A stretch of 64,000 nucleotides of DNA, taken from contig CP064996.1 of assembly GCA_016699995.1 (NCBI GenBank), positions 10,357-74,356 of the forward strand, in the 5' to 3' direction. Made by a program: the position numbers and the translations under genes. Shown here piece after piece: positions 1 to 55,333 of this stretch. Source of the DNA: a bacterium (GTDB lineage: Bacteria > Patescibacteriota > Doudnabacteria > UBA920). Below the pieces are notes generated by a model that did no database searches, was not told the DNA's origin, and saw nothing but the letters and a program-made list of their open reading frames with translations. Numbering within the stretch: position 1 is the stretch's first letter; every line of letters starts with the position of its first letter.

Positions 1-1
1 C

Positions 2-2695: not shown

Positions 2696-3586
2696 ACGCT
2701 ACTGTAAGCGGAGCGCCGACCATAACCAGTATCACCAGCCTGTTCGACATGTATAGCTATGGCGCTCTGTTGAACAATACTACTTCGTCAGCAGGTCACG
2801 CATCACTGTTTAACACCGCTTATGGAGTTTCTGCTCTGCAACCGGTAATCTTACAACAACAGGTGGTACGTCTCATTACGGCGGCCACTTCACCGCAAGT
2901 GGGACCGCAGACACAAACTATGGTATTTATGCCACAGCTTCCCGGAGCTACAAATAACTATGCGGCTGTATTTGCTAATGGCAATGTAGGAATCGGGGAG
3001 ACTACCCCAGACGCCAAGCTTCACGTAGTGGGTACGGTGACTACTTCGGGCGCAGGCGCCATTGCCGGCATCTTTACCGAACACACTATGAACAACAGCA
3101 CTGGGTCTGGCTTCCAGTACGGTAACCGTTCCATCAGCACTATTAGTAGTAGTACCGCCGGAACTCATGTTGGTCAATTCATTCGTATGATCGACAACAC
3201 CTCGTTAGACAGTGGTCAAAACGTCCGAGGTTTAGAAGTACAAGCATTTTCTGGTACTAACGTTAATGGTGCCAATACCGGTATCGCCAGCTTCTGGTTA
3301 TACCTTTGGTATTCAGGCTACCACTACTTCACAGGCTGCAGCGCAAGCCTCGCCAGCTGCTATTTTTGCCGACCTAGATAACGGCACCGATTCTACTACC
3401 AAAACTCGTGGTAATGCCATTCGTGCTTATACTAACGACGCGACAAGTGCGGATATGGTTTATATCTATCAAGAAACGTCTGCGTACACAGGCAATGCTT
3501 TGCTTATGGATTTGGGCAATACTGGTGGTTCGTTTGCATCTGGCAACTTTATTAACCTAAAGAATGCTGGTAAGAAAGCACTGTAA
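2692..3586 (+). pseudogene. Frameshifted continuation of the tail-fibre-like gene. At least three frame changes are visible, near 2843, 2943 and 3290, and the stretch ends at a stop at 3586.
   Basis: Repeat-consistent protein text switches frame. 'SYGALLNNTTSSAGHASLFNTAYGVSA' is in frame B. 'GNLTTTGGTSHYGGHFTASGTADTNYGIYATAS' is in frame C (2844-2948). 'NNYAAVFANGNVGIGETTPDAKLHVVG' is back in frame B. 'ASGYTFGIQATTTS...NAIRAYTNDATSADMVYIYQ' is in the 3266 frame. Confidence 0.5.
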
Positions 3587-3652
3587 CCCAGACTGTATTC
3601 GCTATCGAATCCGAACTACAGCAAATGGCCAAGGCGCCGACACGGTTAAAGC

Positions 3653-4415
3653 TCACTTCGAGGCAGATGGCAGCTTGTTCATCTCTCTCACCAGGCACCC
3701 AAACGACCAACGGGTTGTGTCATGCTAATACTGGCCAGAACTAATAACGACGAAATTGTAGACTGTAGCGGCGCTCCTTCGGACGTAGCTGAATATTTTG
3801 GCAGCGAAGACCCTACTCTAACTGCTGGAGAACTAGTAGTAGTAGGGAAGGCTGCCGAACAGATTCACTTAGACGGTTATCATACTTCTAAAGCATGGGT
3901 CGCTCGATCCTCTAAGGCTTACCAATCTACTTTGATGGGTGTAGTTTCTACAGCTCCAGCAGTAGCATATGGTGATGAAATCTTTGCTCCATCCGAAAAT
4001 CCAAGACCAATTGCTTTGTCTGGTCGCGTCCCGGTTAAAGGTAAACACAGAAAATGGTCCTATTATGCCAGGAGACTTCTTAACAGCTTCTTCTACGCCT
4101 GGTGCGGCCATGAAAGCTATAAAAGCTGGGCCGGTGATCGGTCAGGCTTTAGAAAATTATGAAGGGGGCTTTGGCCAAGTTGGAAATGTAACGTTCTTCG
4201 TGAAGGCAGCCAACTATAGTGGTGCATCTATTAGCGAAGAATTACTGGCTTGGTGTTTGATTACCGACACAGATCAAGTTCAAAGCGCAGCTCAAACTTC
4301 AGTACAAATCTTAGAACACCTGCTTAGCCAGCTAGCCAGCTTAGACGAAAATAATATTTCTCAAATCCGCACCGATATAGTGATTGCGGGCGCCGAAGTG
4401 GTAACCCAAGCGTAA
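3653..4415 (+). pseudogene. Frameshifted C-terminal globular domain of the tail-fibre-like protein. The frameshift lies near nt 4043.
   Basis: ORF 3722..4162 reads '...IALSGRVPVKG' and then turns to junk. ORF 3969..4415 continues as 'VNTENGPIMPGDFLTASSTPGAAMKAIKAGPVIGQAL' in another frame. A single-nucleotide indel around 4040-4046 would join them. The resulting domain resembles the C-terminal intramolecular-chaperone-type domains of tail fibres; that similarity is recalled, not searched. Confidence 0.4.
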
Positions 4416-4484
4416 CTACTCAAACTTTGAGGACAGACTTCTTATCTTCTGCAACAGCAGAGGTAGGCTTGGCAGTCTCATCCG

Positions 4485-4946
4485 GTGGCCATCTTCAATG
4501 GGGGGTTGCTAGTAGACTCAATCGGCTCGGTCGGAGGACTCCTGAGCTTCACAGGTGATGTAGAATTCTTCGGTACCCCATATTTCACTTCCGATACCGC
4601 AGGCTTTGCTGTAGTAAAGGCAGGGGTCCAAGTGGTTGAAGTTAAGTTTACTCGCGAATATCTTGCTCAACCGATTGTGAATGCTTCCTTTAGCTTCGAG
4701 CAGGATGCAGATCTAAGTGGTTTAGACGAAGCAACTATAGCTGCAATGCAAGCTGCTCAAGTAGCTAGTGCCCAAGCTTTCTTAGCGGAAGGCGTGACTT
4801 ACGCTGTTACTAATAAGAGTAAATATGGCTTCACTATTGTATTAAACAAACCAGCCACTACCGACGTGAAGTTTAGCTGGACTGCCTTAGCTGTACGCAA
4901 TGCTACTACCTTTATGAGCTTAGACGCTCCAGTTAGTAGAGGGTGA
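4485..4946 (+). CDS. Hypothetical protein with a GTG start.
   Basis: 153-aa ORF with no recognisable motif. Immediately downstream (4938-5056) lies a Gly/Asp-rich run (GDGSGDIAGDFSPGSGDEVTGEGTGDSDGE) in another frame. Confidence 0.3.
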   Translation: MAIFNGGLLVDSIGSVGGLLSFTGDVEFFGTPYFTSDTAGFAVVKAGVQVVEVKFTREYLAQPIVNASFSFEQDADLSGLDEATIAAMQAAQVASAQAFLAEGVTYAVTNKSKYGFTIVLNKPATTDVKFSWTALAVRNATTFMSLDAPVSRG

Positions 4947-5073
4947 TGGTTCTGGTGATATTGCTGGTGATTTTAGTCCTGGTTCTGGTGATGAGGTAAC
5001 TGGAGAGGGAACAGGCGATAGTGATGGCGAGACCCCTCCTTCAACTGAAGAATAGGTAGAGTTAGAAATAACC

Positions 5074-5102
5074 TTGATAAAATAATTAAAATGTGCTATA
5101 AT
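5074..5102 (+). promoter_or_regulatory. Sigma70-type promoter, TTGATA-17nt-TATAAT.
   Basis: TTGATA at 5074-5079, an exact 17-nt spacer, TATAAT at 5097-5102. The predicted TSS is about 5109. The ATG at 5091 lies inside the spacer. Confidence 0.6.
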
Positions 5103-5177
5103 AACTATAAGTTAAAACTTGTAGTTAGCACTAAAGCTAACGTGACTGAAACAAAAATACAATTTAATATAAAAAGC

Positions 5178-8100
5178 TTGCAAACAAAACCAAAAAACAT
5201 TTTGGAGTCGCTTTATAAATACAAATACTTAACCTTTGTAGGGGTTTTTGTATTTGTTGGCCTGCTCGCGTTTGGTAGTTTGGCAGGAAAAGCTTCGGCA
5301 GACACACAGGGGCCATATAGTACGACAAATGGTTACACAAACATTGTTGGATGTGGGGATAACGGTGATTGGAGTGATATTAACCAAGCAAGCGGTAGTG
5401 ATGATGCATACGCCAGCTCCAGCTTAAAGTCAGACTGGTGCAGTTACTTTTTATATTTAGATGGTTTTGGTTTTAATATTCCAGCCGGAGCGACTATTGA
5501 TGGTATCGAAGTGGGTATCGAAAGAAGAGCCGAGTTTGCTGGTGATTTAGTTGAGCAGTATGTGAGCATGCTCGATGCAGGATCACCTGTTGGCTCAAAC
5601 TATGCCGATTCAAATTACTGGCAAGATTATGACGATACTGTGTATTATGGTAGCTCCTCAGATTTATGGGGTAACAGCTGGAGTCCTGGAATGATTAATG
5701 ACACTGGTTTTGGTATTATATTGTATGCGCTGGCGGGTACAGAAGGCTCCGATGCATTCATCGACGATGTTTTTATAACTGTTCATTACACTCCCGCTAG
5801 TAATACTTGTCAATCTATTTCTAGTGGTAGTGGTAACTGGAATAGTGCTGGTACTTGGACTAACTGTGGCGGGGGAGTACCGGGGTCTGCGGATACAGCA
5901 ATCATTAATGGAACAGCTAATATTACAGTTACGGCCAGCACAACTGTTGCCAGTCTAAATTTTGGGACTACAGCCGCCGCGGCGACAAATGCCACTCTAA
6001 CGATTAATAGCTCGCAAACTTTAACTGTTACCGGTGTCACAACCATGACAGGCACGGCGGGAACGGCTACGCAGGGGACTGTTACTGGAAGCGGAACTTT
6101 GACGACCACCTATCTTTACATTGGTGCTGCCGTTACACCTTCGTCGACGGTGACAAATAAATTAATCTCTACGATTACCGCATTGAACGTTACTGGTTAC
6201 GTCACACTTAATGGTTATTCCAATGGCGGTAGTTACAACAACCCCGCTTTTGAAATACAGTCTGGTACTGCAGATATATGGGGGATTAATACCACCTTAG
6301 CTCATGCCAGCAATACTGCCACCATAAGCTTACAAACCGGTGCTCAATCGGGTACCCTTAAAATGAGCACTTCTTCTCCGTGGGTGATTAGCGGTACTGG
6401 TACCACAACTACTAGTTTAAACGGTACCACCAGCACCGTGGAGTACTCCGGACTTAACCAAACTTTTTTAAATACTACTTATAAAGGACTTAAAGTGAGT
6501 GGTAACGCGGGGACAACTGCTCAGAATGTAACGGTTTCTGGAGTTTTAAATGTGACTGGTACACTAAGCCCGTCATCTGGAACAATAGTACTGTCTGGTA
6601 CCGGCACTCCGTTAACTGTTTCTGGTACTTTTAATCCTTCCACTACCAGCGTTGTTCAGTACACAGGTTCAACAGCCACAGTTACTGCAACAACTTTTAA
6701 TACTTTAACGGTTGGTGGTACTGGCACCTATACGTTCCCAGCCAGTGGGTGGACCATTAAACGCAATCTTACTATTACATCTGGTGCAACTGTCACTAAG
6801 GGTGCAGGAACAATAACTTTTAACACAGCAGGTCAAAACTGTACGATCACTGGTAATGCAACCAACAGTGATTTAGGAACTATTTCTATCGGTAATGGTT
6901 CGGAAGCAAAATCTTGTGGGTTGGGCAGCTCAGTAAAATTTACGGCAGTGACGATTACAACTGGAGCTGGGTTGGATATGGTCAGTAGTTATACTATGAC
7001 CCTAACTGGCTCTGGTACGCCATTAACTGCAACTGGCGCCTTTACTAAAGCTACAGGTACTGTTGAATACACTTCTGCTTCAGGAGTAACTGCATTGTCG
7101 TCCGTTGCTATGACTAGCTCGAAAAGTTATTATAACTTGATCATCAACGGCAGCGGAACTTTCTCTATGGGATCTGCTTTTGATGTAGCCAATGATTTAA
7201 CCGTAACTTCTGGAACATTATCTAGTTCTGCTAGTACCACTACTAATGGGGTAGTGAGTGTAACTGGCACGATGACATATGCTGGATCCTCTACCTTTAC
7301 TCATAGTACAACATCTTCTAAAAACTTTGGCGGTAACGGCAATCTGAGTTTCTATGCCCTCACGTTTAGCGGTGGGGGAGGTACTACAGTAGCAACCGGC
7401 TCAGGAACTGTCACAGTAACAAATGTTTTAACCAATAGCCATGCTTTTAATGCTGGTAGTAAGACATGGATTCTAACAGGCTCAGGTACGCCGTTTAGCG
7501 GTGGGATTGATACACCGGGTACTTCTACTTTTAGCTATCGTAGTACAACTGGAGCCACGGTCAATAGTAACATTACTTATAATAACTTAGATATCTCTCC
7601 TGCCTCGGGAACTAACCCAACTTTTTTGGTTAATGCGACTAATAAGACCATAAATGGAAACTTAACAGTTTCTGGTGTTTCAGGAACATCGTTGAATTAT
7701 AATAATATCGTTTCTTATCTAATTTTAGGTGGAAATTTAACTATTAATGCGGGCAACACGCTCGTCGCACCGCCAAGCGGAGCGACATTTACAATTGCTG
7801 GCAGTCTAGCTAACTCCGGAACTTTTACTCACAACAGTGGTAATATAACTTTCAGCTCAACTTCTACAGGCAGAACCATCGCTACAAACGGCAGCTCGTT
7901 GAATAATGTTATTTTCAATGGTGCTGGCGGTGGTTGGTCTCCCAGCGGTGGCGCCATGACCTTAGCAGGGGATTTGACCATGACTGCGGGAACGCTTTCT
8001 GGCTCCCAAAACGTAACAGTAAATGGCGGTGATGTAACAGGTAACGGCACGATTAACATGAGTAGCGGTACTTTCTTAGTAGACGGTACCTCGGGCACTG

Positions 8101-11100
8101 GCTTTGGTGGTAGCACTAACTGGACGTTTAGTGCCTTAACCTTTGGGGATGGTAGTGGTAGTACTACTATCAGCTCGACTGGTAGTGGTAGTATTACTAC
8201 TTCGACTCTTACCATAGCAGCTAGCCAGACTTATAACGCAGGTGCAAAAACTTATGTTTTATCAGGCACTGGCACGCCATTAACCGTTACGGGAACCTTT
8301 AATTCGGAATCCAGCACTGTTCAGCATACTGGCGCAACAGCTACGGTTAGAGCAACAACTTATTACACTTTGCATTTGGGAATCAGTAGTGGTACCTACA
8401 CTATGCCCTCTACGACCATAACCATAAAAGGTAATTTAGTTATTCCTAGCGGCGTAACTGTAACCAAAGGCGCAGGTACAATTGTTTTTTCTGGAACTGG
8501 TAATCAACTCATCACTGATAGTAATGATACAAAGCAAGATCTAGGTGCGGTGCAAATTTCTAATACAGCCGATAACTGGTGCTCTGCTGGACAATGTAAT
8601 TACAATTGGCTAAGTCGCCGTAAAATTACTTTTAATAACTCTGATTTGAGTGGTAATTTAACAAACTTTCCAGTATTGGTTTCTTTAACTGGGCTTACAA
8701 TTGATTACGCTAAAACCAAAAACTCCGGTGAAGACATTCGGTTTGTAGATCCCGACGGTACTGTGTTGAATCATGAAATCGAAAAATGGGATGAGTCTGG
8801 CACCTCTTTGGTTTGGGTGAAAATCCCAACATTGAGCAATAATGCGACTGACTACGTTTACATGTACTACAATAACCCCCAGGCTGTAGATATTCAAGCG
8901 CCTACAAATGTTTGGGATAGTAATTATAAAGCAATTTATCACTTGCCAAACGGAACGACTTTGAGGGCTCTAGACTCCACTGGTGTAAATAATGCAAATA
9001 TTACATCAGCAACAGCAACAACTGGAAAAGTTGGTGGGGGAGCTAGTTTTAATGGTACTTCCGCTAAAATAATTGCTCCAGCTACTTCAAGTTTAGATGT
9101 CAGCTCTGGTGCTGGAATTACTGTTGATGGATGGTTTAATCCTACCGACATGACTGGTATGAGACCTTTAATAGAATGGGGAAATAGTGGCGCGTATGGT
9201 GTTCATATGTGGAATTATCCATCAAGCGGGAAAATTTATGTGAATGTTGTTGAGTCCAATGGAGCTAATCATACTTTTCAAACAACAGGGACCCCTTTGA
9301 CTCTTAGTACTTGGCAACATGTTGCTTTTACCTACAATAAATCCACTGGTGCGGTTGCCTTGTATTATAACGGGGTAGCCCAGTCTTTGGACACAGGAAA
9401 CATCGGTGCATTTACACCTAAGACTAACCTCGATTTCAATATCGGACATCGGCCGAATACTGGTGGAGTGTATTATTATAATGGATCTCAGGACGAAATT
9501 AGAGTCTCGAATGTTGTGCGAACAGCCGACTGGATGAAGGCTTCATATAACTCTTCGAACAGTAGTATGAATAGTTTTGGCAGCGAAGAGGTTTATGGTG
9601 GCACGAGCGTGGCCATGGGGTCGCCCTTAAAAATGACTAGCCTGACTATAGATTCTGGCAGAACTTTTGGAGTTAATGGTTCCAATACCCTAACCTTAAC
9701 AGGCAATGGAGCTTCGGTATTTGTAGTCTCTGGCAACTTTATTGCCTCTACAGGTACTGTTGAGTATGTGTCCACGGCCACAACCGGAACGACTGTAGCT
9801 TCTACAACTTATTATAATTTAGTAGTTAACAGGGCTAGTAATACTTTTACCATGCCAGGAGAAATGTACGTTAATAATAATTTTACTATCAGTGCCGGCA
9901 ACTTCTCCATCACAGCAGAATCATTAATTTTGGGTGGGGACTTCACAAACAATGGTACTTTTACACCAAATGAGGGTAGTGTTGTTATGCAGCCGTTAAA
10001 TAGTACAAAAACATCACAGATTTTAGGTTCATCAAATACATCACTTGGTTACTTCCAAGCGATGACCCCGGGGAGTACTATTAAATTCCAAGCCGGACGA
10101 ACATATACTTGGCTTGAGCTAACAGTTGTAGGGTCTGAAGCAGAACCCGTTACATTTTCTAGTACTTCAGCTGGTTCGCAGTGGAATGTAACTTTGACAG
10201 ACACAAATTACATTCAATACTTAAGAGTAAAGGATAGTGCCTGTGTAGGTGACACGTATACTTTTCCAAGGGACAATCCTGATTTATACAACTTAGGTAA
10301 TAATGGTACTTGCTGGGGGTTTATTGTTCAGGTTGATCCTGGTGGTCCTAGCGGTGGTGGTTCTGGATCAAGTGGAGCTTCTAGTTCGACCTCTCAAATC
10401 TTTACAACTTCTGGAACATGGACTGCTCCAGTGGGGATCACATCTGTAGATGTTGAAGTATGGGGCGGCGGTGCAGGCGGTTCTTACTACGGTGGCGGCG
10501 GCGGAGGCGGTGGAGCATATTCCAGAAAAAATTCTATAACAGTAACTCCGTTTAGTACTTATACGGTCACAGTCGGTGCTGGCGGCAACGAGGCAGTCGG
10601 TGGTGACTCTTGGTTCCTTTCTACGGGGACAGTCTTAGCCAAAGGCGGTAGTTTGGGAGTATATGGTTTTGGGGGCGGCGGTCCGCCATGTACTGGTGGT
10701 ACTGGTGGGGCAACAGCTGCCGGAGTTGGTGATGTTAAGTATGCTGGAGGAAACGGTGGTACAGGCCAGTGTTATGGTGGTACTGGTGGCGGCGGTGGTG
10801 CAGGTGCTAGTAGTACTGCAAATGGCGCTAATGGTAGTGGCACAACTGCTGGTGCAAGTTCTGGACAAGGCGGCCGGGGTGGTACCGGTTCTGGGTTTGA
10901 TATATCTCCTCCTGCTGGTAGTTGGGGTGAAGCCATTGGCGGCGGTGGCGGCGGTTGGACATGGTATGAACCTTCTATTCATCCTCGAGGTGCTCGCGGA
11001 GAGGTGCGAATTTACTATAACGGTGCTGGTGGTGGTAGTGGCGGTAGTGGTAGTTCGGGTGGTAGTGGCGGTAGTGGTGGTGGAAGCAGTTGTACAACCA

Positions 11101-11357
11101 CAGCAACGGGTACGGTAGACATGGAAAACGATAGGGTTGCTGGTGTGACTATAGTTTGTGGTGGCTCAGGCTACTCTTCGGCTCCCACAGTGACTTTCAT
11201 TGGCGGCGGCGGTAGCGGCGCATCTGCTACAGCTGTATTAACCAACGGAGTCGTAACTTCCGTGACTATTAATTCAGGCGGCGAGGGGTACGATTTACCT
11301 TCAGTCACATTCTCTGCACCTGGCCAAGGTGGCGGCGGCGGCGGAGCTTCTCCTTAG
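5178..11357 (+). CDS. Giant secreted surface protein of about 2060 aa. It has a signal peptide, roughly 80-aa Thr/Gly repeats, a DUF2341-like plus LamG/ConA-like core, and a glycine-rich C-terminus with tandem terminal repeats. The start is assigned to the in-frame TTG at 5178; the alternatives are GTG 5142 and TTG 5202.
   Basis: Single 2088-codon frame. The signal peptide is YKYKYLTFVGVFVFVGLLAFGSLAGKASA|DTQ. The repeated module reads 'SGTGTPLTV(S/T)GTF..ST..VQ(Y/H)TG.TATV.ATT(F/Y).TL..G..GTYT.P....I...L.I.SG.TVTKGAGTI.F'. The DUF2341-like segment reads 'FPVLVSLTGLTIDYAKTKNSGEDIRFVDPDGTVLNHEIEKWDESGTSLVWVKIP...YVYMYYNN'. The LamG-like segment reads 'GGASFNGTSAKIIAP...GITVDGWFNP'. The Gly-rich block reads 'TTSGTWTAPVGITSVDVEVWGGGAGG...GGGGGGGAYS'. 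Confidence 0.8.
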   Translation: MQTKPKNILESLYKYKYLTFVGVFVFVGLLAFGSLAGKASADTQGPYSTTNGYTNIVGCGDNGDWSDINQASGSDDAYASSSLKSDWCSYFLYLDGFGFNIPAGATIDGIEVGIERRAEFAGDLVEQYVSMLDAGSPVGSNYADSNYWQDYDDTVYYGSSSDLWGNSWSPGMINDTGFGIILYALAGTEGSDAFIDDVFITVHYTPASNTCQSISSGSGNWNSAGTWTNCGGGVPGSADTAIINGTANITVTASTTVASLNFGTTAAAATNATLTINSSQTLTVTGVTTMTGTAGTATQGTVTGSGTLTTTYLYIGAAVTPSSTVTNKLISTITALNVTGYVTLNGYSNGGSYNNPAFEIQSGTADIWGINTTLAHASNTATISLQTGAQSGTLKMSTSSPWVISGTGTTTTSLNGTTSTVEYSGLNQTFLNTTYKGLKVSGNAGTTAQNVTVSGVLNVTGTLSPSSGTIVLSGTGTPLTVSGTFNPSTTSVVQYTGSTATVTATTFNTLTVGGTGTYTFPASGWTIKRNLTITSGATVTKGAGTITFNTAGQNCTITGNATNSDLGTISIGNGSEAKSCGLGSSVKFTAVTITTGAGLDMVSSYTMTLTGSGTPLTATGAFTKATGTVEYTSASGVTALSSVAMTSSKSYYNLIINGSGTFSMGSAFDVANDLTVTSGTLSSSASTTTNGVVSVTGTMTYAGSSTFTHSTTSSKNFGGNGNLSFYALTFSGGGGTTVATGSGTVTVTNVLTNSHAFNAGSKTWILTGSGTPFSGGIDTPGTSTFSYRSTTGATVNSNITYNNLDISPASGTNPTFLVNATNKTINGNLTVSGVSGTSLNYNNIVSYLILGGNLTINAGNTLVAPPSGATFTIAGSLANSGTFTHNSGNITFSSTSTGRTIATNGSSLNNVIFNGAGGGWSPSGGAMTLAGDLTMTAGTLSGSQNVTVNGGDVTGNGTINMSSGTFLVDGTSGTGFGGSTNWTFSALTFGDGSGSTTISSTGSGSITTSTLTIAASQTYNAGAKTYVLSGTGTPLTVTGTFNSESSTVQHTGATATVRATTYYTLHLGISSGTYTMPSTTITIKGNLVIPSGVTVTKGAGTIVFSGTGNQLITDSNDTKQDLGAVQISNTADNWCSAGQCNYNWLSRRKITFNNSDLSGNLTNFPVLVSLTGLTIDYAKTKNSGEDIRFVDPDGTVLNHEIEKWDESGTSLVWVKIPTLSNNATDYVYMYYNNPQAVDIQAPTNVWDSNYKAIYHLPNGTTLRALDSTGVNNANITSATATTGKVGGGASFNGTSAKIIAPATSSLDVSSGAGITVDGWFNPTDMTGMRPLIEWGNSGAYGVHMWNYPSSGKIYVNVVESNGANHTFQTTGTPLTLSTWQHVAFTYNKSTGAVALYYNGVAQSLDTGNIGAFTPKTNLDFNIGHRPNTGGVYYYNGSQDEIRVSNVVRTADWMKASYNSSNSSMNSFGSEEVYGGTSVAMGSPLKMTSLTIDSGRTFGVNGSNTLTLTGNGASVFVVSGNFIASTGTVEYVSTATTGTTVASTTYYNLVVNRASNTFTMPGEMYVNNNFTISAGNFSITAESLILGGDFTNNGTFTPNEGSVVMQPLNSTKTSQILGSSNTSLGYFQAMTPGSTIKFQAGRTYTWLELTVVGSEAEPVTFSSTSAGSQWNVTLTDTNYIQYLRVKDSACVGDTYTFPRDNPDLYNLGNNGTCWGFIVQVDPGGPSGGGSGSSGASSSTSQIFTTSGTWTAPVGITSVDVEVWGGGAGGSYYGGGGGGGGAYSRKNSITVTPFSTYTVTVGAGGNEAVGGDSWFLSTGTVLAKGGSLGVYGFGGGGPPCTGGTGGATAAGVGDVKYAGGNGGTGQCYGGTGGGGGAGASSTANGANGSGTTAGASSGQGGRGGTGSGFDISPPAGSWGEAIGGGGGGWTWYEPSIHPRGARGEVRIYYNGAGGGSGGSGSSGGSGGSGGGSSCTTTATGTVDMENDRVAGVTIVCGGSGYSSAPTVTFIGGGGSGASATAVLTNGVVTSVTINSGGEGYDLPSVTFSAPGQGGGGGGASP

Positions 11358-11374
11358 ATAAATTATAAATAATA

Positions 11375-11401
11375 AAGGTGACCCTTGAACGGTCACCTTT
11401 T
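11375..11401 (+). terminator. Rho-independent terminator.
   Basis: AAGGTGACC / GGTCACCTT form a perfect 9-bp stem with a 7-nt loop, followed by TTTAAA. Confidence 0.7.
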
Positions 11402-11419
11402 AAACGTTAAACTAAAGAT

Positions 11420-11974
11420 ATGTTTGAATCCGATAACTCCAGACCACCTAAAATTCGCGTATCCCAGACTGATCATCGCCCGACGAGAGATAAGTTGGGT
11501 AATCTAATGGAAGAAGTGGTCCGAAACAGAAATAAACCCAGTAATCGTAAAATGTGGATTATTATTGCCATATCAGTCGCTGTAGTCGCTGTTATAGGTT
11601 TTTTTCTAATCCGAGCTCAGATGCAATTGAAGGAGTTGCAAAATGGAGCGGATACAGGTTCTCAGAATGATCCAGCTGCTCAGCTGCAAGAAGACAATAA
11701 AAAACTAATCGAGCAGGTTCGCAAGCTGATAATTTTACCGGATGACGAAGAGCCAACTATTGCCACGGTTAATGATTTAAGCAAGCTCCAAGGTCAGCCG
11801 TTTTTTGCCAAGGCGCAACTTGGCGATAAGGTCTTGATCTACAATAAAGCGCGTAAAGCGATATTGTTCCGGCCGAGCGATAATCAGATTATCGAATTGG
11901 CGCCTTTGGTGGATCCTTCGGCTTCTTCCCCTGCGGATGGTTCAGCAGGCCAAACGCCGGCATCTGGCCAGTAA
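11420..11974 (+). CDS. Hypothetical membrane-anchored protein with one TM helix.
   Basis: 184-aa ORF. The TM segment is IIIAISVAVVAVIGFFLI and the N-terminus is basic. Confidence 0.5.
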   Translation: MFESDNSRPPKIRVSQTDHRPTRDKLGNLMEEVVRNRNKPSNRKMWIIIAISVAVVAVIGFFLIRAQMQLKELQNGADTGSQNDPAAQLQEDNKKLIEQVRKLIILPDDEEPTIATVNDLSKLQGQPFFAKAQLGDKVLIYNKARKAILFRPSDNQIIELAPLVDPSASSPADGSAGQTPASGQ

Positions 11975-12025
11975 TGGCTTCAATTTTCGGTGTTGTGATA
12001 CTAATCTAGTCGATAAAAGATACTA

Positions 12026-13213
12026 ATGAAACTAAAACCAGAAAAGTGGACGCATAATCATTCGCATCGCCTGTACCATATGTCGATGGGTGTTTGTTTT
12101 GGCTTTATTTCTCTTGCTGTAGTCGGCGTAATGGCGACTGTCTGGATGAACGCTGGCGCAGAAGACGTTAACATCACAGCGTTAGTAGAAGGCGTTAATC
12201 CTGGGCCCATCATTGGCGGCGGCGGAGGACCTGCACCTGTGCCAACTCCAAACCCAACTATTAATATGGTCGCCGAGCCGCAAGGGCAGATAGCACAGCG
12301 GCCTATCAATACGCCAGAAGGTTTACGAGCAGCTGACGTGTTTCCGGGCAGGCCAAGCTACTCGGGAACTACCTCTGTCGGCGGAGGTTTGATTTTCATC
12401 AGTGTGTCTGGGACAAGCTCGTTCAATAGCACAGCTCAGGCCGATGCAACAGGTAAGTGGCTATGGCAATCTCCCGTCGAGCTCATAGAGGGCACGTATT
12501 CGATTACAGCTTCCGTGTATGATTCTTACGATTTAACTCGTTCCGGATCTACAAAGAGGTATTTTATAGTAGAGTTTCCTAAGGAGCCGGTCCCAGTAGA
12601 TCCTGGCCAACCCGGACAGCCTGGGCAACCTGGCGGACCAGGAACGCAGCCTGGAACTGGAACAGGTACAGGTAAGCCTTCCACTCCGGGAGGCCCTTCT
12701 ATTCCAACTCTTCCTCCAGTGGAAGTTCCGGCCGGGCCTTCTCAATTTGGAATATTTATTTCGATTGTTGATGATTATCGGTATGTTAATGCCGGGGAAA
12801 AAGTTATTGCCAGATTGATGTTGGTTAGTAGTACCGGCCAGCAAGTAGTGGCGCAGGATATTGATTACAAAATTATTTCGCCCGCAGGCAAAGTTATCTT
12901 AGAGACTACAGATACAGTATCATTTAGCAAGCAATCTCAATTCCTAAAGACCTTTACCACTGCCCCAGAAACTCCGGCAGGAGAATATACCATACAGGTT
13001 TCTAGCCGGCACAATGGCATTACTTCTCAGGCGCAGGCAAAGTTTAATCTGCTAGCCAATCCGGCATCGGCCGGTACGGTGCAGCCCCAAGGGCCGGTTG
13101 TAATTTGGTCTTTGTTGATATTACTGTGGCTGCTATTTGTCGTGCTGTTGATCATTGCCTATAGGCAGGTCATGCACCATCACGAGGAGATAAAAAATAA
13201 TCCCACTTACTAA
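12026..13213 (+). CDS. Hypothetical surface protein with N- and C-terminal TM segments and a Pro/Gly-rich linker.
   Basis: 395-aa ORF. It has two beta-rich domains separated by PGQPGQPGQPGGPGTQPGTGTGTGKPSTPGGPSIPTLPP, and a C-terminal TM VIWSLLILLWLLFVVLLIIAY. Confidence 0.55.
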   Translation: MKLKPEKWTHNHSHRLYHMSMGVCFGFISLAVVGVMATVWMNAGAEDVNITALVEGVNPGPIIGGGGGPAPVPTPNPTINMVAEPQGQIAQRPINTPEGLRAADVFPGRPSYSGTTSVGGGLIFISVSGTSSFNSTAQADATGKWLWQSPVELIEGTYSITASVYDSYDLTRSGSTKRYFIVEFPKEPVPVDPGQPGQPGQPGGPGTQPGTGTGTGKPSTPGGPSIPTLPPVEVPAGPSQFGIFISIVDDYRYVNAGEKVIARLMLVSSTGQQVVAQDIDYKIISPAGKVILETTDTVSFSKQSQFLKTFTTAPETPAGEYTIQVSSRHNGITSQAQAKFNLLANPASAGTVQPQGPVVIWSLLILLWLLFVVLLIIAYRQVMHHHEEIKNNPTY

Positions 13214-13238
13214 AACCGCTTAATTTAAGCGGTTTTTT
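13214..13238. terminator. Intrinsic terminator between convergent genes.
   Basis: AACCGCTTA / TAAGCGGTT form a 9-bp stem with a 3-nt loop and a T-run on the + strand. Confidence 0.6.
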
Positions 13239-13284
13239 GCAGTTAGAAATTAAGCTCAGCCCATCGGTTAGGCTGGCCCCGGGC

Positions 13285-15525
13285 CTATTGTTCTGGCCAA
13301 TGTGCAACCATTAACTGTTTTTCGTTAACTAAGCCTTCGGATGTCAGCTCTTGCCACAATACTTCTGTTAGGAACGGCATATATGGGTGTAGCAATTTTA
13401 AGCTTGTTGTTAACACATGCAGTAAAATTAGCTGGGTGTTTTGCTTTTGCTCCTGGTCTGCCAGTTGAGCCTTGGAGGCCTCTATGTAGACGTCGGCAAA
13501 GTCGCGCCACACGAAGTCATATAAGCTTTGAGCCGCCTCGTGCAAACGAAACTTCTCTAAGTGTTCATTTACAGCTTTAATCGTGCTTGTCAGCTGCTCT
13601 AATATTATTCTGTCGGCTTCAGTAATAGCTTGAGGTGATTTGTATTGGTCCTCAGTAATCGCTTCATCTAAGCTCAGCAGCGCATATCGGGTAATATTCC
13701 ATAACTTGTTCCCAAAGTGCTTCATGCCTTTTACTTTTTGTTCATCGAACAGCGTATCATTGCCGGCGGCGGCATTGAATACCAACGCTAAGCGTAAAGC
13801 ATCGGTTCCGTATTTATCCGCCATTTCGATCGGGTCAATTCCATTGTTGAGTGATTTGCTAAATTTGCGTCCTTGCTTGTCGCGAACAATACCGTGCAAA
13901 TAGATTCTTTGGAAAGGTATTTGTCCAAGGTGGTAGCCAGTCATTAAGATCATGCGTGCTACCCAGAAGAATAAGATTTCGTAGCCCGGCGCTATTACGG
14001 AAGTTGGATGGAAGCTTTTTAAGTCCTCAGTTTGGTTTGGCCATCCTAACGTAGAGAAAGTCCACAAGCCAGACGAAAACCAGGTATCCAGAGTATCTTC
14101 GTCCTGCACCCATTCGTTTGCGTTGTTCCTTCCTGCGTTTTTGTCCGGAGCTTCAATCCCACAGTACTCATCTGTCATGCCGGTGCTGTTATCGGTGCGG
14201 TACCAAACAGGGATCTGATGGCCGAACCATAGCTGGCGGGAAATGCACCAGTCGCGAAGGTTATCGATCCAGTGGAAGTAAGTCTTAGAAAAATGTTCTG
14301 GAATAATTTCGATCTGACCGCTTTGGACTACGTGACGCATCAACTGTTTTAGAGTTACTTCTTGGCCGGTTTTAATGCCTTTGATTTTTGAATCTCTCAC
14401 TAAAAATGGCTTATTTACAGCCAAAAACCATTGAATTTTAGGCAGGGGTTCTATTATTCCGCCCGAACGTTCGGCAGTGGAAACATTTTGCTTGATAACT
14501 TCTTCCTTCTCGATTAACTCGTTTGCCTTCAGCCAGGCCACCACCATTTCTCTAGCTTCTGTGGTTTTCTTCCCCTTGAGATCTACTCCAGCTTGGTCGC
14601 TCCCAACTGTCATTCTGGCGAACTCATTTATTACCGGCTTGGTTTCCAAATTATGGCGTTGCGCAATTTCGGCATCAATAGTGCTGTGCGCCGGGGTAAC
14701 GCCAAGTGCGCCAGTACCAAATTCTTTGTCTACGCTTTCATCTGCAATAACCTTAATATGAATTGGCACTCCAGCAAATGCAATATCGTATTCCTTGCCA
14801 ACAAATTCTTTATAGCGCTCATCGTCGGGATGGACCGCAACAGCTGTATCACCAACCTTGGTTTCTGGGCGAGTTGTAGAAATTGCGATAGGGAAATCTT
14901 TGCTGTACTTAAATGTATACAGTACAGCTTCGCGTTCCTGGTAGATGATTTCATCATCAGAAATAACAGTCTGCCCTTTAGGATCCCAGTTTACTACTTT
15001 GTAGTCGCGATAGATCAGGCCATCGTCGTACATAGCTTTAAACGCGGTGCGTACTGCCAGGCTTCGGGCTTCGTCTAATGTGTAAGCTTCGCGGCTCCAG
15101 TCTAGCGAAGCACCCATTCTTTTAAGCTGATTGATGATCGTATCGTGGCTGTCTTGTGCGAATTTGTTTACGCGTTCCAAAAATGCCGCTCGGCCCAAGT
15201 CGGTTTTACGTTTTCCTTCTTCTTTCTCTAAAATTTTCTCAACTTTGCTTTGGGTGGCAATTGCGGCATGGTCTGTTCCTGGTAGCCAAAGGGTTCTACG
15301 TCCCTGCATTCGCCGAAAACGAATCAGAATATCCTGGATAGTGTCTTCGAATGCATGCCCTAAGTGCAGAGTGCCCGTTACATTCGGCGGCGGCAGGATA
15401 ATTGTAAAAGGCTCGCCGTTTTTATTTGGCAAATTATCCGGGTTAAAGTACCCGGAATCCAGCCAGAGTTTGTATATGTCGGATTCGTACTTGGAAGCGT
15501 CATAGGATTTGTCTAGTTCTTTCAT
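13285..15525 (-). CDS. valS: Valyl-tRNA synthetase.
   Basis: Carries PPPNVTGTLHLGHA (ValRS-type HIGH) and KFSKS (KMSKS). The start is set at ATG 15525 (MKELDKSYD..., the typical ValRS N-terminus). The GTG at 15600 used by the ORF track lies inside the leader terminator. Confidence 0.9.
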   Translation of the reverse strand: MKELDKSYDASKYESDIYKLWLDSGYFNPDNLPNKNGEPFTIILPPPNVTGTLHLGHAFEDTIQDILIRFRRMQGRRTLWLPGTDHAAIATQSKVEKILEKEEGKRKTDLGRAAFLERVNKFAQDSHDTIINQLKRMGASLDWSREAYTLDEARSLAVRTAFKAMYDDGLIYRDYKVVNWDPKGQTVISDDEIIYQEREAVLYTFKYSKDFPIAISTTRPETKVGDTAVAVHPDDERYKEFVGKEYDIAFAGVPIHIKVIADESVDKEFGTGALGVTPAHSTIDAEIAQRHNLETKPVINEFARMTVGSDQAGVDLKGKKTTEAREMVVAWLKANELIEKEEVIKQNVSTAERSGGIIEPLPKIQWFLAVNKPFLVRDSKIKGIKTGQEVTLKQLMRHVVQSGQIEIIPEHFSKTYFHWIDNLRDWCISRQLWFGHQIPVWYRTDNSTGMTDEYCGIEAPDKNAGRNNANEWVQDEDTLDTWFSSGLWTFSTLGWPNQTEDLKSFHPTSVIAPGYEILFFWVARMILMTGYHLGQIPFQRIYLHGIVRDKQGRKFSKSLNNGIDPIEMADKYGTDALRLALVFNAAAGNDTLFDEQKVKGMKHFGNKLWNITRYALLSLDEAITEDQYKSPQAITEADRIILEQLTSTIKAVNEHLEKFRLHEAAQSLYDFVWRDFADVYIEASKAQLADQEQKQNTQLILLHVLTTSLKLLHPYMPFLTEVLWQELTSEGLVNEKQLMVAHWPEQ

Positions 15526-17816: not shown

Positions 17817-18401
17817 TTAGAAAGAATTTCCTATACTGTAAGTTTTAAAGCCGAAAGTCGGCACCCCTTTGTATGTTGAGGTGTAGTCTGTATCTGCCAC
17901 TTCCATAACTCCGGCAAAAACTGCATAGTGGCCGTTAAGCTGGGCGTTGGTTAAGGGGCATCCGTAATTTTGACACAGACTAGCTACAGTTGCAGGGGGG
18001 TTGTAATAAATCATGGCCCATCGGCCTGAAGAGCCATCTCCTGTGTTACAAGATTGGCCGCAGGGGTCTGTAGGTAGTTTTGTCAGATAAGGCTGCAATT
18101 CTGCCTGGAGCGCGGCCCATTGTGTAGGCTTGTTTACGCTCGTTACGCATCCACCTGGGTCAGTATTGGTGGAATTACAGTTCAGCGCTCCTACATATGG
18201 CGCATGGCCATTGTCATTGATATAGAATTCTATGGCGCTGTTCAGCTGGCGCAGGTCTGCTGTGCGCTTAGCATCACGGGCAAGCTTACGCACGCCGGTA
18301 AAGGTCGTTAAGACGATTCCCGATAGTAGGCCGATAATGGCCACTACTACCAGCATTTCCATTAATGTAAACCCTTGTTGTTTGGATAACGCTTTAATCA
18401 T
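17817..18401 (-). CDS. Type IV pilin / pseudopilin.
   Basis: Class III signal 'MIKALSKQQG|FTLMEMLVVVAIIGLLSGIV' (prepilin peptidase site G/FTLxE). The C-terminal half is cysteine-rich. Confidence 0.85.
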   Translation of the reverse strand: MIKALSKQQGFTLMEMLVVVAIIGLLSGIVLTTFTGVRKLARDAKRTADLRQLNSAIEFYINDNGHAPYVGALNCNSTNTDPGGCVTSVNKPTQWAALQAELQPYLTKLPTDPCGQSCNTGDGSSGRWAMIYYNPPATVASLCQNYGCPLTNAQLNGHYAVFAGVMEVADTDYTSTYKGVPTFGFKTYSIGNSF

Positions 18402-55234: not shown

Positions 55235-55333
55235 AAATTAGTTTAAATTTAGCTCAATTATTATAGTAAGATTGGCGTGTTGTGTCAATCTGGGCGGGAT
55301 ATTATAATAAGAAAAAGATATTTTGGAGGATTG

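What the first reader, a model, noticed from the sequence alone, without database searches (positions are those of the whole stretch)
5074..11357. Giant 2,000+ aa secreted protein whose annotated ATG lies inside its own promoter
A TTGATA-17-TATAAT promoter at 5074-5102 places the TSS near 5109, downstream of the ORF-track ATG at 5091, so the gene cannot start there. Between the TSS and the signal peptide (YKYKYLTFVGVFVFVGLLAFGSLAGKASA|D) the only in-frame starts are GTG 5142, TTG 5178 and TTG 5202, none with a Shine-Dalgarno sequence. This suggests SD-independent initiation at a non-ATG codon. The protein combines about 80-aa Thr/Gly-rich repeats (at least 6 copies), a DUF2341-like plus LamG-like lectin core, a glycine-rich block (TWTAPVGITSVDVEVWGGG...GGGGGGGG) and two tandem C-terminal ~35-aa repeats (VTIVCGGSGYSSAPTVTF / VTINSGGEGYDLPSVTF). 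This architecture resembles the giant adhesins used by episymbiotic bacteria for host attachment.
Basis: partly seen in the sequence, partly recalled or inferred. Interest (0 to 1): 0.6.

Follow-up and report, generated by a model that had tools for sequence, protein, structure and literature searches.

The report
Giant surface-protein gene missing its start codon
A 2,000-residue secreted surface protein gene of an ultra-small (Patescibacteria) bacterium has a conserved promoter that excludes the first ATG, and the ATG its relatives use as start codon reads TTT here, so it must start at a rare non-ATG codon or be poorly translated.

Summary
TTGATA-17-TGcTATAAT (5074-5102) is the best promoter match in the region, and ATG 5091 lies in its spacer. 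The in-frame GTG 5142, TTG 5178 and TTG 5202 have no Shine-Dalgarno sequence. DUF2341, Laminin_G_3 and Gly_rich_2 are real Pfam hits.

Eleven related giant-gene loci from other Patescibacteria metagenomes (nine distinct once near-identical copies are merged) settle most of the question. All carry the same cassette:
- a TTGNNA-17-TG(c/a)TATA(A/C)T promoter;
- a likely transcription start at a conserved AAG 7 nt downstream (window about 5109);
- a 30-90 nt leader ending in an unpaired A-rich element, GAAACAAAAA..CAA;
- then ATG AAT.

The window has the element (5148-5162), but the codon after it is TTT (5163-5165). So ATG 5091 is not the start. Lack of a Shine-Dalgarno sequence is normal for this family and genome. 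The non-ATG start is a local consequence of losing the family's ATG. TTG 5178, the GenBank start (QQS22956.1), is the most likely replacement; weak or no translation is the main rival.

The protein is a Sec-exported, beta-rich surface protein of a known kind. The adhesin role is plausible but untested. The repeats are modules 135-262 aa apart, not 80-aa repeats.

The parts
5074..5079 (+). -35 hexamer TTGATA
   Evidence: The aligned hexamer is TTGAAA, TTGCAA or TTGACA in all 11 related loci.
5094..5102 (+). Extended -10 box TGcTATAAT, 17 nt after the -35 hexamer
   Evidence: TG(c/a)TATA(A/C)T with a 17-nt spacer is present in every related locus.
5091..5093 (+). ATG that opens the longest ORF. 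It lies in the promoter spacer and is very probably not transcribed as part of the mRNA.
   Evidence: It is not conserved. L086 has GTG here, followed by TAA after 7 codons. L091 has GTG out of frame with the ORF, and an in-frame stop lies between promoter and ATG.
5109..5111 (+). Predicted transcription start (AAG, 7 nt after the -10 box)
   Evidence: An AAG or AAA begins 6-8 nt after the -10 hexamer in 10 of the 11 related leaders; L094 has AAC. Inferred; not mapped experimentally.
5124..5141 (+). Leader hairpin GTTAGC-actaaa-GCTAAC
   Evidence: L095 has the same stem and L091 nearly the same. Other relatives have stems of different sequence at the same place. Statistical support is weak singly; the combined Fisher p is 0.005.
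5142..5144 (+). In-frame GTG, an alternative start candidate 7 codons before the ancestral start position
   Evidence: An in-frame GTG exists at a comparable place only in L086, L089 and L090, and not in the other relatives.
5148..5162 (+). Conserved A-rich leader element GAAACAAAAATACAA, predicted unpaired
   Evidence: It is the only match in the window. In the related loci the same element, with or without a 6-nt insert, directly precedes ATG AAT and a giant ORF of 1636-3394 codons. It is unpaired in every predicted fold.
5163..5165 (+). TTT at the position of the family's start codon ATG
   Evidence: BLASTP aligns M1 of P0032 with residue 25 of the ORF, which is this codon.
5178..11357 (+). 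Coding sequence as in GenBank QQS22956.1 (2059 aa), starting at TTG 5178. This is the most likely present start.
   Evidence: TTG 5178 is the nearest start-type codon after the A-rich element (15 nt) and corresponds to Leu6 of P0032.
5202..5204 (+). In-frame TTG, a third start candidate
   Evidence: It corresponds to a conserved internal Leu codon of the relatives. It lies in a weak predicted hairpin, CCAAAA/UUUUGG.
5214..5300 (+). Core of the Sec-type signal peptide (YKYKYLTFVGVFVFVGLLAFGSLAGKASA), with cleavage predicted after 5300
   Evidence: By inspection. The motif YKYKNLAxAGVFVF and an AxA site followed by xxGP are shared by relatives.
5301..5816 (+). N-terminal beta-sandwich domain with a weak likeness to carbohydrate-binding modules
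   Evidence: AlphaFold model, pLDDT 90. Foldseek matches CBM4, CBM61 and CBM11 with TM 0.42-0.46 and E about 1e-3. It is homologous to free-standing proteins of about 180 aa.
5817..8675 (+). Thr/Gly/Ser-rich all-beta repeat region with modules starting at aa 501, 636, 795 and 1057
   Evidence: The model is all-beta but of low confidence (pLDDT 57).
8727..8915 (+). DUF2341 domain (PF10102)
9054..9530 (+). Laminin_G_3 / concanavalin A-like lectin domain (PF13385)
   Evidence: PDB sequence hits 4dqa and 4qvs fall in this region.
9603..10340 (+). Second beta-rich region containing the fifth repeat module (aa 1534)
10410..11018 (+). Gly_rich_2 domain (PF21722)
11145..11312 (+). Two C-terminal copies of VTIxxGGxGYxxxPxVTF (aa 2019-2036 and 2058-2074)
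   Evidence: The last 88 aa are 73% identical to the C-terminus of P0028. No Pfam match.
11374..11400 (+). Hairpin 17 nt after the stop codon (AAAGGTGACC-cttgaac-GGTCACCTTT), a possible terminator or 3' stabiliser
   Evidence: The T-run on the + strand is short (4 T).

Best explanation
Transcription. The gene is a single-gene transcription unit. A sigma-70-type promoter with an extended -10 box (TTGATA-17-TGcTATAAT, 5074-5102) starts transcription at about A5109. ATG 5091 is therefore upstream of the mRNA and is not the start codon. This rests on conservation and is inferred, not mapped.

Leader. The leader is about 54 nt long. It contains a small hairpin (5124-5141) and then an unpaired A-rich element, GAAACAAAAATACAA (5148-5162). 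In every related giant-protein gene this element abuts the start codon ATG (ATG AAT, 'MN...'). The family thus initiates without a Shine-Dalgarno sequence on an unstructured A-rich leader. The conserved arrangement is shown; that the element recruits the 30S subunit, for example through protein S1, is inferred.

Start-codon loss. In this genome the ATG has become TTT (5163-5165). Translation must now begin at a nearby non-ATG codon. The most likely is TTG 5178, which lies 15 nt downstream and costs only five residues of the signal peptide's N-region. Less likely are GTG 5142 and TTG 5202. Efficiency is presumably lower than in relatives (inferred).

Product. The protein is exported by Sec and probably cleaved after ..KASA. 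It is a giant beta-rich surface protein with these parts in order:
- an N-terminal CBM-like beta-sandwich;
- long Thr/Gly-rich beta modules;
- a DUF2341 plus LamG lectin-like core;
- a Gly_rich_2 domain;
- a duplicated C-terminal motif.
Its likely role is contact with other cells or glycans. That role is inferred from the architecture and the literature, and is untested.
For: Promoter:
- 11/12 match plus TG, the best in the region.
- All 7 matches of at least 11/12 in the window are intergenic and correctly oriented, against 1.2 expected. The local chance of such a match is 0.003.
- The same promoter is present in L007, L086-L095: 17-nt spacer, TG(c/a)TATA(A/C)T, scores 9-12/12.
- An AAG or AAA sits 6-8 nt after the -10 box in 10 of the 11 related leaders.

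ATG 5091 is not conserved, and in-frame stops lie between promoter and start in L086, L089, L090, L091 and L095.

The A-rich element is followed by ATG AAT and a giant ORF of 1636-3394 codons in the related loci. The window alone has TTT.

L091, L094 and L007 have no other in-frame start codon upstream, so the ATG is the family start.

M1 of P0032 aligns with residue 25 of the ORF.

The element and the start codon are unpaired in all predicted folds.

GenBank annotates TTG 5178 as the start.

The ORF is intact over 2064 codons, whereas the neighbouring upstream gene is broken into three frames. This argues that the giant gene is still under selection.

Domains and fold.

Literature: large DUF2341/FhaB proteins of Patescibacteria have been proposed to act in adhesion or host interaction (PMC11809585). 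DUF2341 is reported in pilus-associated adhesins (PMC4858521).
Against: - There is no experimental transcription start or N-terminus.
- The ORF's frame is free of stops from 5049 to 5162. The probability is 0.03-0.11 for the 23 codons after ATG 5091 and 0.005-0.015 for all 38 codons. The other two frames carry 4 and 8 stops.
- ATG 5091 lies 7 nt after TGaTAAAAT. That is the geometry of the leaderless-looking genes in this window.
- Apart from the frameshifted upstream gene, 39 of the 47 other ORFs examined open with ATG. At least five of the eight that open with GTG or TTG have an ATG 2-13 codons downstream. A TTG or GTG start would therefore be unusual here.
- TTG 5178 was already present as an ordinary Leu codon in the relative L091, so nothing marks it as an evolved start.
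- The role of the A-rich element in ribosome recruitment is inferred only.
Confidence: 0.6

Rival explanations
1. The gene has lost its start codon and is not translated, or only barely. It would be a very young pseudogene or a silenced allele of a variable surface protein, sitting next to an already decayed neighbour.
For: - The family's ATG is TTT here, which requires two substitutions.
- Non-ATG starts are not evident elsewhere in the window.
- The orthologue of the intact upstream gene of L086-L091 is split over three reading frames in the window, so the locus shows decay.
Against: - 2064 codons remain open with all domains intact, so any inactivation must be very recent.
- The promoter and leader element are perfectly preserved.
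- Usable TTG and GTG codons lie within 15-21 nt of the lost ATG.
Confidence: 0.2
2. ATG 5091 is the true start. The mRNA would be leaderless, made from the overlapping extended -10 element TGaTAAAAT (5075-5083, 7 nt before the ATG), or it would arise by read-through from the upstream gene. The protein would then carry a 45-residue N-region before the hydrophobic core.
For: - The geometry matches other leaderless-looking genes of the window. Examples: 40042 has TGaTATAAT + 6 nt + ATG; 43653(-) has TCGACA-17-TACAAT + 7 nt + ATG; 55710(-) has TATAAT + 6 nt + ATG.
- The frame is open from 5049 with P 0.005-0.1.
- ATG is the usual start codon in this genome.
- Long N-regions occur in some relatives such as P0037 and P0041.
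Against: - TGaTAAAAT has no -35 partner (1/6 matches, by inspection). It is simply the conserved -35 hexamer plus an A-rich spacer of the stronger promoter.
- The ATG is absent at this position in all relatives, and their upstream frames are closed by stops or out of frame.
- Across the ten leaders compared (window plus nine relatives), in-frame stops are not depleted: 9, against 12 and 15 in the other two frames.
- Positions 5091-5201 are 25% G+C, like the intergenic 5056-5090 (20%) and unlike the coding sequence (45%).
- Homology to relatives starts only at residue 25-36.
Confidence: 0.08
3. Translation starts at GTG 5142 (upstream of the A-rich element) or at TTG 5202 rather than at TTG 5178.
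For: - Both are in frame and inside the predicted mRNA.
- GTG 5142 lies 39 nt after the -10 box, similar to the leader lengths of other genes in the window that lack a Shine-Dalgarno sequence (26-62 nt). An in-frame GTG exists at a similar place in L086, L089 and L090.
- TTG 5202 follows the most A-rich stretch and gives the shortest, most typical signal peptide (MESLYKYKY...).
Against: - GTG 5142 directly abuts the 3' arm of the leader hairpin. It precedes the conserved element that abuts the start codon in all relatives, and it is absent in six other relatives.
- TTG 5202 is predicted to pair in a small hairpin and lies 39 nt from the ancestral start.
- Neither was chosen by the NCBI annotation.
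Confidence: 0.1
4. TTT at 5163-5165 is an assembly or consensus error, and the organism really has ATG there.
For: - Only one contig carries this sequence.
- The neighbouring upstream gene shows many frame changes, which could also be local assembly errors.
Against: - Two substitutions in one codon are not the typical error of any platform (my own knowledge).
- The surrounding 6.3 kb ORF has no frame error.
Confidence: 0.03

Closest known systems
Large DUF2341- and/or FhaB-domain proteins of Patescibacteria (noted in Dutkiewicz et al., ISME Commun 2024, PMC11809585)
   Same: Same phylum. Proteins above 2,000 aa, secreted, with a DUF2341 domain, and proposed to act in adhesion or host interaction. 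This protein is already in GenBank as 'DUF2341 domain-containing protein' (QQS22956.1).
   Different: No FhaB/TPS domain or autotransporter barrel was found here. The conserved promoter-leader cassette and the start-codon loss are not mentioned in the passages of that paper I read.
Translation initiation without a Shine-Dalgarno sequence on unstructured A-rich leaders (non-SD genes; see PMC5397173 and PMC10783764, listed; the S1-dependent mechanism is my own knowledge)
   Same: No Shine-Dalgarno sequence. An A-rich, unpaired stretch lies directly before the start codon. Shine-Dalgarno sequences are uncommon across the genome.
   Different: Here a specific 15-21 nt sequence, not just a composition, is conserved across genes whose proteins are only about 45-50% identical or have different architectures. 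It is restricted to giant surface-protein genes in the loci examined. In the window it is no longer followed by ATG.
Extended -10 (TGnTATAAT) sigma-70 promoters
   Same: -35 TTGATA, 17-nt spacer, TG at -15/-14, perfect TATAAT. The geometry is conserved in all relatives.
   Different: None in sequence terms. Activity and start site have not been measured in this phylum for this gene.
[quoted passage not shown]
   Same: DUF2341 domain, large size, presumed surface exposure. A pilin-like gene lies 6.5 kb away (17817-18401).
   Different: The gene is not in a pilus operon. It has a Sec-type AxA signal peptide and no class III (prepilin) signal.
Polymorphic-toxin-like relatives with a C-terminal PT-HINT domain (P0026, P0029, P0030, P0036)
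   Same: 48-57% identity over the N-terminal 1,700 residues, the same promoter-leader cassette and the same gene neighbourhood.
   Different: The window protein has no PT-HINT or intein-like module. It ends in the duplicated VTIxxGGxGY..VTF motif, like P0027 and P0028.
Specialised signal peptides of giant Gram-positive adhesins (YSIRK, KxYKxGKxW; my own knowledge)
   Same: A conserved sequence motif inside the signal peptide (YKYKNLAxAGVFVF) is shared by otherwise different giant surface proteins.
   Different: The motif is different. No model in NCBIfam or Pfam matches it, and a profile search found nothing significant.

Membership tests
Sigma-70-type promoter with extended -10 | -35 and -10 hexamers close to TTGACA and TATAAT, spaced 17±1 nt, with TG one base upstream of the -10 box | tested here: met
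   TTGATA-17-TGcTATAAT, 11/12 plus TG.
Sigma-70-type promoter with extended -10 | Position and sequence conserved upstream of orthologous genes | tested here: met
   All 11 related loci carry it with a 17-nt spacer, scoring 9-12/12 where scored.
Sigma-70-type promoter with extended -10 | Transcripts start 6-8 nt downstream of the -10 box | not testable with these tools
   No RNA data. Only a conserved AAG or AAA 6-8 nt after the -10 box.
Initiation led by a Shine-Dalgarno sequence | GGAGG-like motif 4-15 nt upstream of the start codon | tested here: not met
   None before ATG 5091, GTG 5142, TTG 5178 or TTG 5202, and none before the ATG of any relative. The GGAG at 5204-5207 is followed by no in-frame start codon (by inspection).
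Leaderless mRNA | ATG at the transcript's 5' end, i.e. 6-8 nt after a -10 box | tested here: inconclusive
   ATG 5091 lies 7 nt after TGaTAAAAT, but that element has no -35 partner and the ATG is not conserved. No start-type codon sits at the start site predicted for the main promoter.
DUF2341 (PF10102) | HMM score above Pfam's gathering threshold | tested here: met
   53.4 bits against 23.4, aa 1213-1275.
Laminin_G_3 (PF13385) | HMM score above Pfam's gathering threshold | tested here: met
   68.7 bits against 27.6 on the excised segment. Not reported in the full-length scan.
Gly_rich_2 (PF21722) | HMM score above Pfam's gathering threshold | tested here: met
   49.5 bits against 24.3 on the excised segment, covering 223 of 226 model positions.
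Sec (type I) signal peptide | Basic N-region, hydrophobic core of about 20 residues, small residues at -3 and -1 | tested here: met
   KYKY / LTFVGVFVFVGLLAFGSLAG / KASA|D, by inspection. The equivalent AxA site is conserved in relatives. No predictor was run.
Autotransporter or two-partner-secretion (FhaB) adhesins | C-terminal beta-barrel or N-terminal TPS domain | tested here: not met
   No such Pfam or NCBIfam hit on the whole protein or its pieces.
PT-HINT polymorphic toxins | Pretoxin HINT domain followed by a toxin module | tested here: not met
   Absent here. Present in relatives P0026, P0029, P0030 and P0036.
Host-attachment adhesin of an episymbiont | Demonstrated binding to a host cell, or a loss-of-attachment phenotype | not testable with these tools
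   Architecture only: a CBM-like fold and a LamG domain.

The most novel reading that the evidence does not exclude
The promoter, hairpin and GAAACAAAAA..CAA-ATG-AAT cassette may be a dedicated expression module for giant surface-protein genes across several Patescibacteria lineages. The A-rich element would act as a specific ribosome-recruiting or regulator-binding site that works without a Shine-Dalgarno sequence. The ATG-to-TTT change in this genome would then be a natural down-tuned or switched-off allele of a host-interaction protein.
Probability: 0.3. Interest if true: 0.65.

Novelty: new variant of a known kind. Interest (0 to 1): 0.45.

Why it matters
For annotation: longest-ORF and some gene-caller starts of these giant genes fall inside or next to their own promoters. 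This is seen here and in L092, L093 and L096. The conserved leader element gives a simple rule for placing the true start.

For biology: the cassette is a concrete, testable example of how organisms with few Shine-Dalgarno sequences mark the start of very long, probably highly expressed surface-protein genes. The TTT allele offers a natural experiment on what happens when the ATG is lost. The protein itself belongs to a class already suspected of mediating cell contact in Patescibacteria, so the gene is not new in kind.

Tried and rejected
- Protein search with the N-terminal 294 aa: it found only distant domain relatives of about 180 aa and missed the protein itself. The full-length search was needed.
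- Metagenome scan with the N-terminus: only six hits, all to the short GNWNSAGTW...ADTAIINGT motif. No orthologues.
- tblastn against the ValRS-anchored genome loci: only partial syntenic homologues, none with a conserved N-terminus. L007 later proved to carry the cassette.
- NCBIfam: no hit.
- Pfam on the N-terminal domain, the repeat region and the C-terminal repeats: no hit.
- PDB sequence search: only matches in the LamG region.
- Profile of the signal-peptide motif against the 5.8-billion-protein set: nothing at E <= 0.01.
- AlphaFold on aa 300-900 with 8 homologues: all-beta but pLDDT 57, too weak for a fold search.
- RNAalifold on a MAFFT alignment of seven leaders: no consensus structure, because the hairpin arms are out of register. 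Formal covariation could therefore not be counted.
- Whole-leader folding energy of the window is not significant (z -1.2).
- Look-up of P0025's contig: not on record.
- P0034: no DNA available.
- UGA recoding (genetic code 25) as an explanation for the broken upstream gene: rejected by inspection, because other genes and the giant ORF read through normally in code 11.
- In-frame stop depletion in leaders as a sign of translated N-terminal extensions: rejected (9, against 12 and 15 stops).

Full report
**1. What is in the window**

The ORF 5091..11357 (+) has 2088 codons. Just upstream lies TTGATA (5074-5079), a 17-nt spacer, and TGcTATAAT (5094-5102). This is the best sigma-70-type match in 3000-14000, at 11/12 plus an extended -10 TG. 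ATG 5091 sits in the spacer. In the stretch I read between 5094 and about 5260 no ATG occurs in any frame. The in-frame start-type codons are GTG 5142, TTG 5178 and TTG 5202, and none has a Shine-Dalgarno motif.

**2. Organism and genome habits**

The window is cellular DNA with 44.8% G+C, carrying a class I aminoacyl-tRNA synthetase that I treat as ValRS, UvrA, RNase J, TsaD and two tRNAs. The synthetase is 75-81% identical to those of uncultured Patescibacteria MAGs. These are labelled Saccharibacteria by an automated pipeline; Doudnabacteria score about 65%.

Canonical promoters are clearly used. There are 7 matches of at least 11/12 in the window against 1.2 expected, and all 7 are intergenic and point at a gene or tRNA. 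Only about 10-12 of about 50 genes have a Shine-Dalgarno sequence. Several genes have a -10 box 6-8 nt before the ATG, which looks leaderless. Others have 20-60 nt leaders without a Shine-Dalgarno sequence. Lack of a Shine-Dalgarno sequence is therefore the rule here, not a peculiarity of this gene.

**3. The protein is already in GenBank**

The full-length search found the protein itself: QQS22956.1, 'DUF2341 domain-containing protein', 2059 aa, on a 943-kb contig. Its N-terminus, MQTKPKNILESLYKYKY, shows that NCBI placed the start at TTG 5178. The 'annotated ATG' of the finding is only the longest-ORF start.

**4. Comparative evidence on promoter, leader and start**

I fetched the DNA of nine related giant proteins (11 loci in all) and one syntenic locus from the synthetase search:
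- L086 to L096, apart from L096, which is unclear;
- L007.

Counting the near-identical pairs L086/L090 and L087/L088 once, nine distinct loci remain. Several share the window's gene order: a big upstream gene, the giant gene, a membrane protein of about 190 aa, and in L091 also the Big_13/MG2 gene and the synthetase gene.

All of them carry the same cassette:
- TTG(A/C)(A/C)A, a 17-nt spacer, and TG(c/a)TATA(A/C)T;
- an AAG or AAA 6-8 nt after the -10 box in 10 of the 11 loci (AAC in L094), which is the likely transcription start;
- 39-93 nt between the -10 box and the start codon;
- directly before the start, GAAACAAAAA[CAAAAA]YRCAA (a one-base-shorter GAAACAAAAAACAA in L095), followed by ATG AAT.

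The element occurs once in the window, at 5148-5162. In the loci it occurs only in front of giant ORFs of 1636-3394 codons, with one evident chance hit in L071.

In L091, L094 and L007 no other in-frame start codon exists upstream, so this ATG is the family start.

The window is identical to L091 through the element (GAAACAAAAATACAA) and just after it (AAT A.A .AA AGC TTG CAA), but reads TTT where L091 reads ATG (5163-5165). BLASTP aligns M1 of P0032 with residue 25 of the long ORF.

**5. Consequences for ATG 5091**

The equivalent triplet is GTG in two relatives. In L086 it is followed by TAA after 7 codons. In L091 it is out of frame with the ORF. Five relatives have in-frame stops between promoter and start.

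Positions 5091-5201 have 25% G+C, like the intergenic DNA (20%) and unlike the coding sequence (45%).

Gene callers made the same kind of error elsewhere:
- in L092 and L093 the called ATG lies 2 nt after the -10 box;
- in L096 the called ATG directly abuts what, by inspection, looks like a -35 hexamer (TTGGAC).

Two points speak the other way. The window's frame is free of stops from 5049 (P 0.005-0.11 depending on span and shuffle model). And ATG 5091 lies 7 nt after TGaTAAAAT, a leaderless-type geometry. However, that 'element' is just the conserved -35 hexamer plus an A-rich spacer. Family-wide, in-frame stops in the ten leaders compared are not depleted: 9, against 12 and 15 in the other frames. 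I put this rival at about 0.08.

**6. Where translation starts now**

The element and the codon after it are unpaired in every predicted fold. A hairpin of varying sequence ends 0-8 nt upstream of the element in ten of the eleven leaders folded; L007 has none:
- GTTAGC/GCTAAC in the window and L095, and nearly so in L091;
- TTGGC/GCCAA in L093;
- GTGTC/GACAC in L092;
- ACAGT/ACTGT in L094;
- TCACC/GGTGA in L086 and L090, and TCATC/GGTGA with one G-U pair in L089;
- TTCGA/TCGAA in L087.

Energies against shuffles are weak singly, and the combined Fisher p is 0.005. RNAalifold on a MAFFT alignment failed. I call the hairpin suggestive only.

With the ATG gone, the candidates compare as follows:
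- TTG 5178 is the nearest start-type codon after the element, 15 nt away. It removes only five residues of the N-region and is NCBI's choice.
- GTG 5142 directly abuts the 3' arm of the hairpin, lies before the element, and is not conserved.
- TTG 5202 is further away and weakly paired.

Apart from the frameshifted upstream gene, 39 of the 47 other ORFs I examined open with ATG. At least five of the eight that open with GTG or TTG have an ATG 2-13 codons downstream. Reduced or absent translation is therefore a real possibility, at about 0.2.

Against a dead gene: 2064 codons are intact, while the upstream neighbour is broken into three frames in the window. That neighbour is intact in L086-L091.

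**7. The protein**

- Signal peptide: conserved YKYKNLAxAGVFVF-type core and an AxA site.
- aa 71-242: beta-sandwich, pLDDT 90. It shows weak Foldseek likeness to CBM4, CBM61 and CBM11 (TM 0.42-0.46). It is homologous to free-standing secreted proteins of about 180 aa.
- aa about 243-1195 and 1505-1750: Thr/Gly/Ser-rich all-beta regions with five modules, at aa 501, 636, 795, 1057 and 1534. Consecutive modules are 135-262 aa apart rather than 80 aa. The model is of low confidence.
- DUF2341 at aa 1213-1275, Laminin_G_3 at aa 1322-1480 and Gly_rich_2 at aa 1774-1976.
- Two C-terminal VTIxxGGxGYxxxPxVTF motifs, 39 aa apart.

Relatives P0028 and P0029 are 48% identical over aa 33-1745. Some relatives replace the C-terminal module with PT-HINT.

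**8. Comparison with what is known**

Large DUF2341/FhaB proteins have been noted in Patescibacteria and proposed to act in adhesion or host interaction (PMC11809585). DUF2341 is reported in pilus-associated adhesins (PMC4858521). A pilin-like gene lies at 17817-18401.

Nothing here tests binding. The gene is a new member of a known kind. The conserved promoter-leader cassette, and the loss of its ATG in this genome, are the new elements: a variant of known initiation without a Shine-Dalgarno sequence on an A-rich leader.

**9. Verdict**

Probabilities:
- The conserved promoter is real and ATG 5091 is not the start: about 0.85-0.9.
- A non-ATG codon is actually used productively: about 0.65. 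TTG 5178 specifically: about 0.45.
- Silent or weak allele: about 0.2.

Interest is moderate, at 0.45.

Noticed in passing
window 1-5055 (+): The gene upstream of the giant gene is one long intact ORF in L086-L091 (at least 705-1656 aa). In the window its orthologue is split over all three frames, with about eight frame changes between 2650 and 4945. The acidic, Pro-rich tail (4924-5052) is in a different frame from the body. It is either a pseudogene or a locally unpolished stretch of assembly.
   Followed up: partly
whole window, e.g. 40042, 43653(-), 55710(-), 18687(-), 22215(-), 35052(-): Many genes have a TATAAT-like box 6-8 nt upstream of their ATG and no Shine-Dalgarno sequence, which looks leaderless. 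Only about 10-12 of about 50 genes have a GGAGG-type Shine-Dalgarno sequence. Others (26432, 32879, 45831) have 20-60 nt leaders without one.
   Followed up: partly
L092:2501 and L093:2501; L096:1501: In related loci the gene callers' ATG lies 2 nt after the -10 box (L092, L093). In L096 it directly abuts what looks like a -35 hexamer. This gives spurious N-terminal extensions (MK[DE]LQ...ETKTQ) ahead of the conserved MN.. start.
   Followed up: partly
window 5214-5300; P0026-P0041 N-termini: A conserved signal-peptide motif, (F/I)YKYKNLA(L/F)AG(V/I)FVF, is shared by giant proteins of different architecture. It resembles the specialised signal peptides of Gram-positive adhesins. No database model matches it, and a profile search returned nothing at E <= 0.01.
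   Followed up: partly
window 11420-11974 (+): A 184-aa single-pass membrane protein with no Pfam match lies directly downstream of the giant gene. It is conserved in that position in all orthologous loci (45-67% identity), so it may be a functional partner.
   Followed up: partly
window 17817-18401 (-): A pilin-like gene with a prepilin N-terminal methylation motif (QQGFTLMEMLVVV; PF07963, E 1.8e-8) lies 6.5 kb from the giant gene.
   Followed up: no
P0026, P0029, P0030, P0036 (loci L086, L089, L090, L094): Close relatives end in PT-HINT and intein-like modules, in the manner of polymorphic toxins. The window protein, P0027 and P0028 end in the duplicated VTIxxGGxGY..VTF module instead. The C-terminus is a swappable cassette.
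   Followed up: no
window 55288..55260 (-): A perfect 12/12 consensus promoter (TTGACA-17-TATAAT) lies about 280 nt upstream of the longest-ORF start of the SBP_bac_5 gene (53226-54980). This implies a long leader, a small unannotated gene or an RNA.
   Followed up: no
leaders of window (5124-5141), L091, L095, L092, L093, L094, L086/L090, L089, L087: A hairpin with 5-7 bp stems of at least six different sequences ends 0-8 nt before the conserved A-rich element. This may be covariation, but the energies are only weakly better than shuffles (combined p 0.005), and no register-correct alignment could be made.
   Followed up: partly
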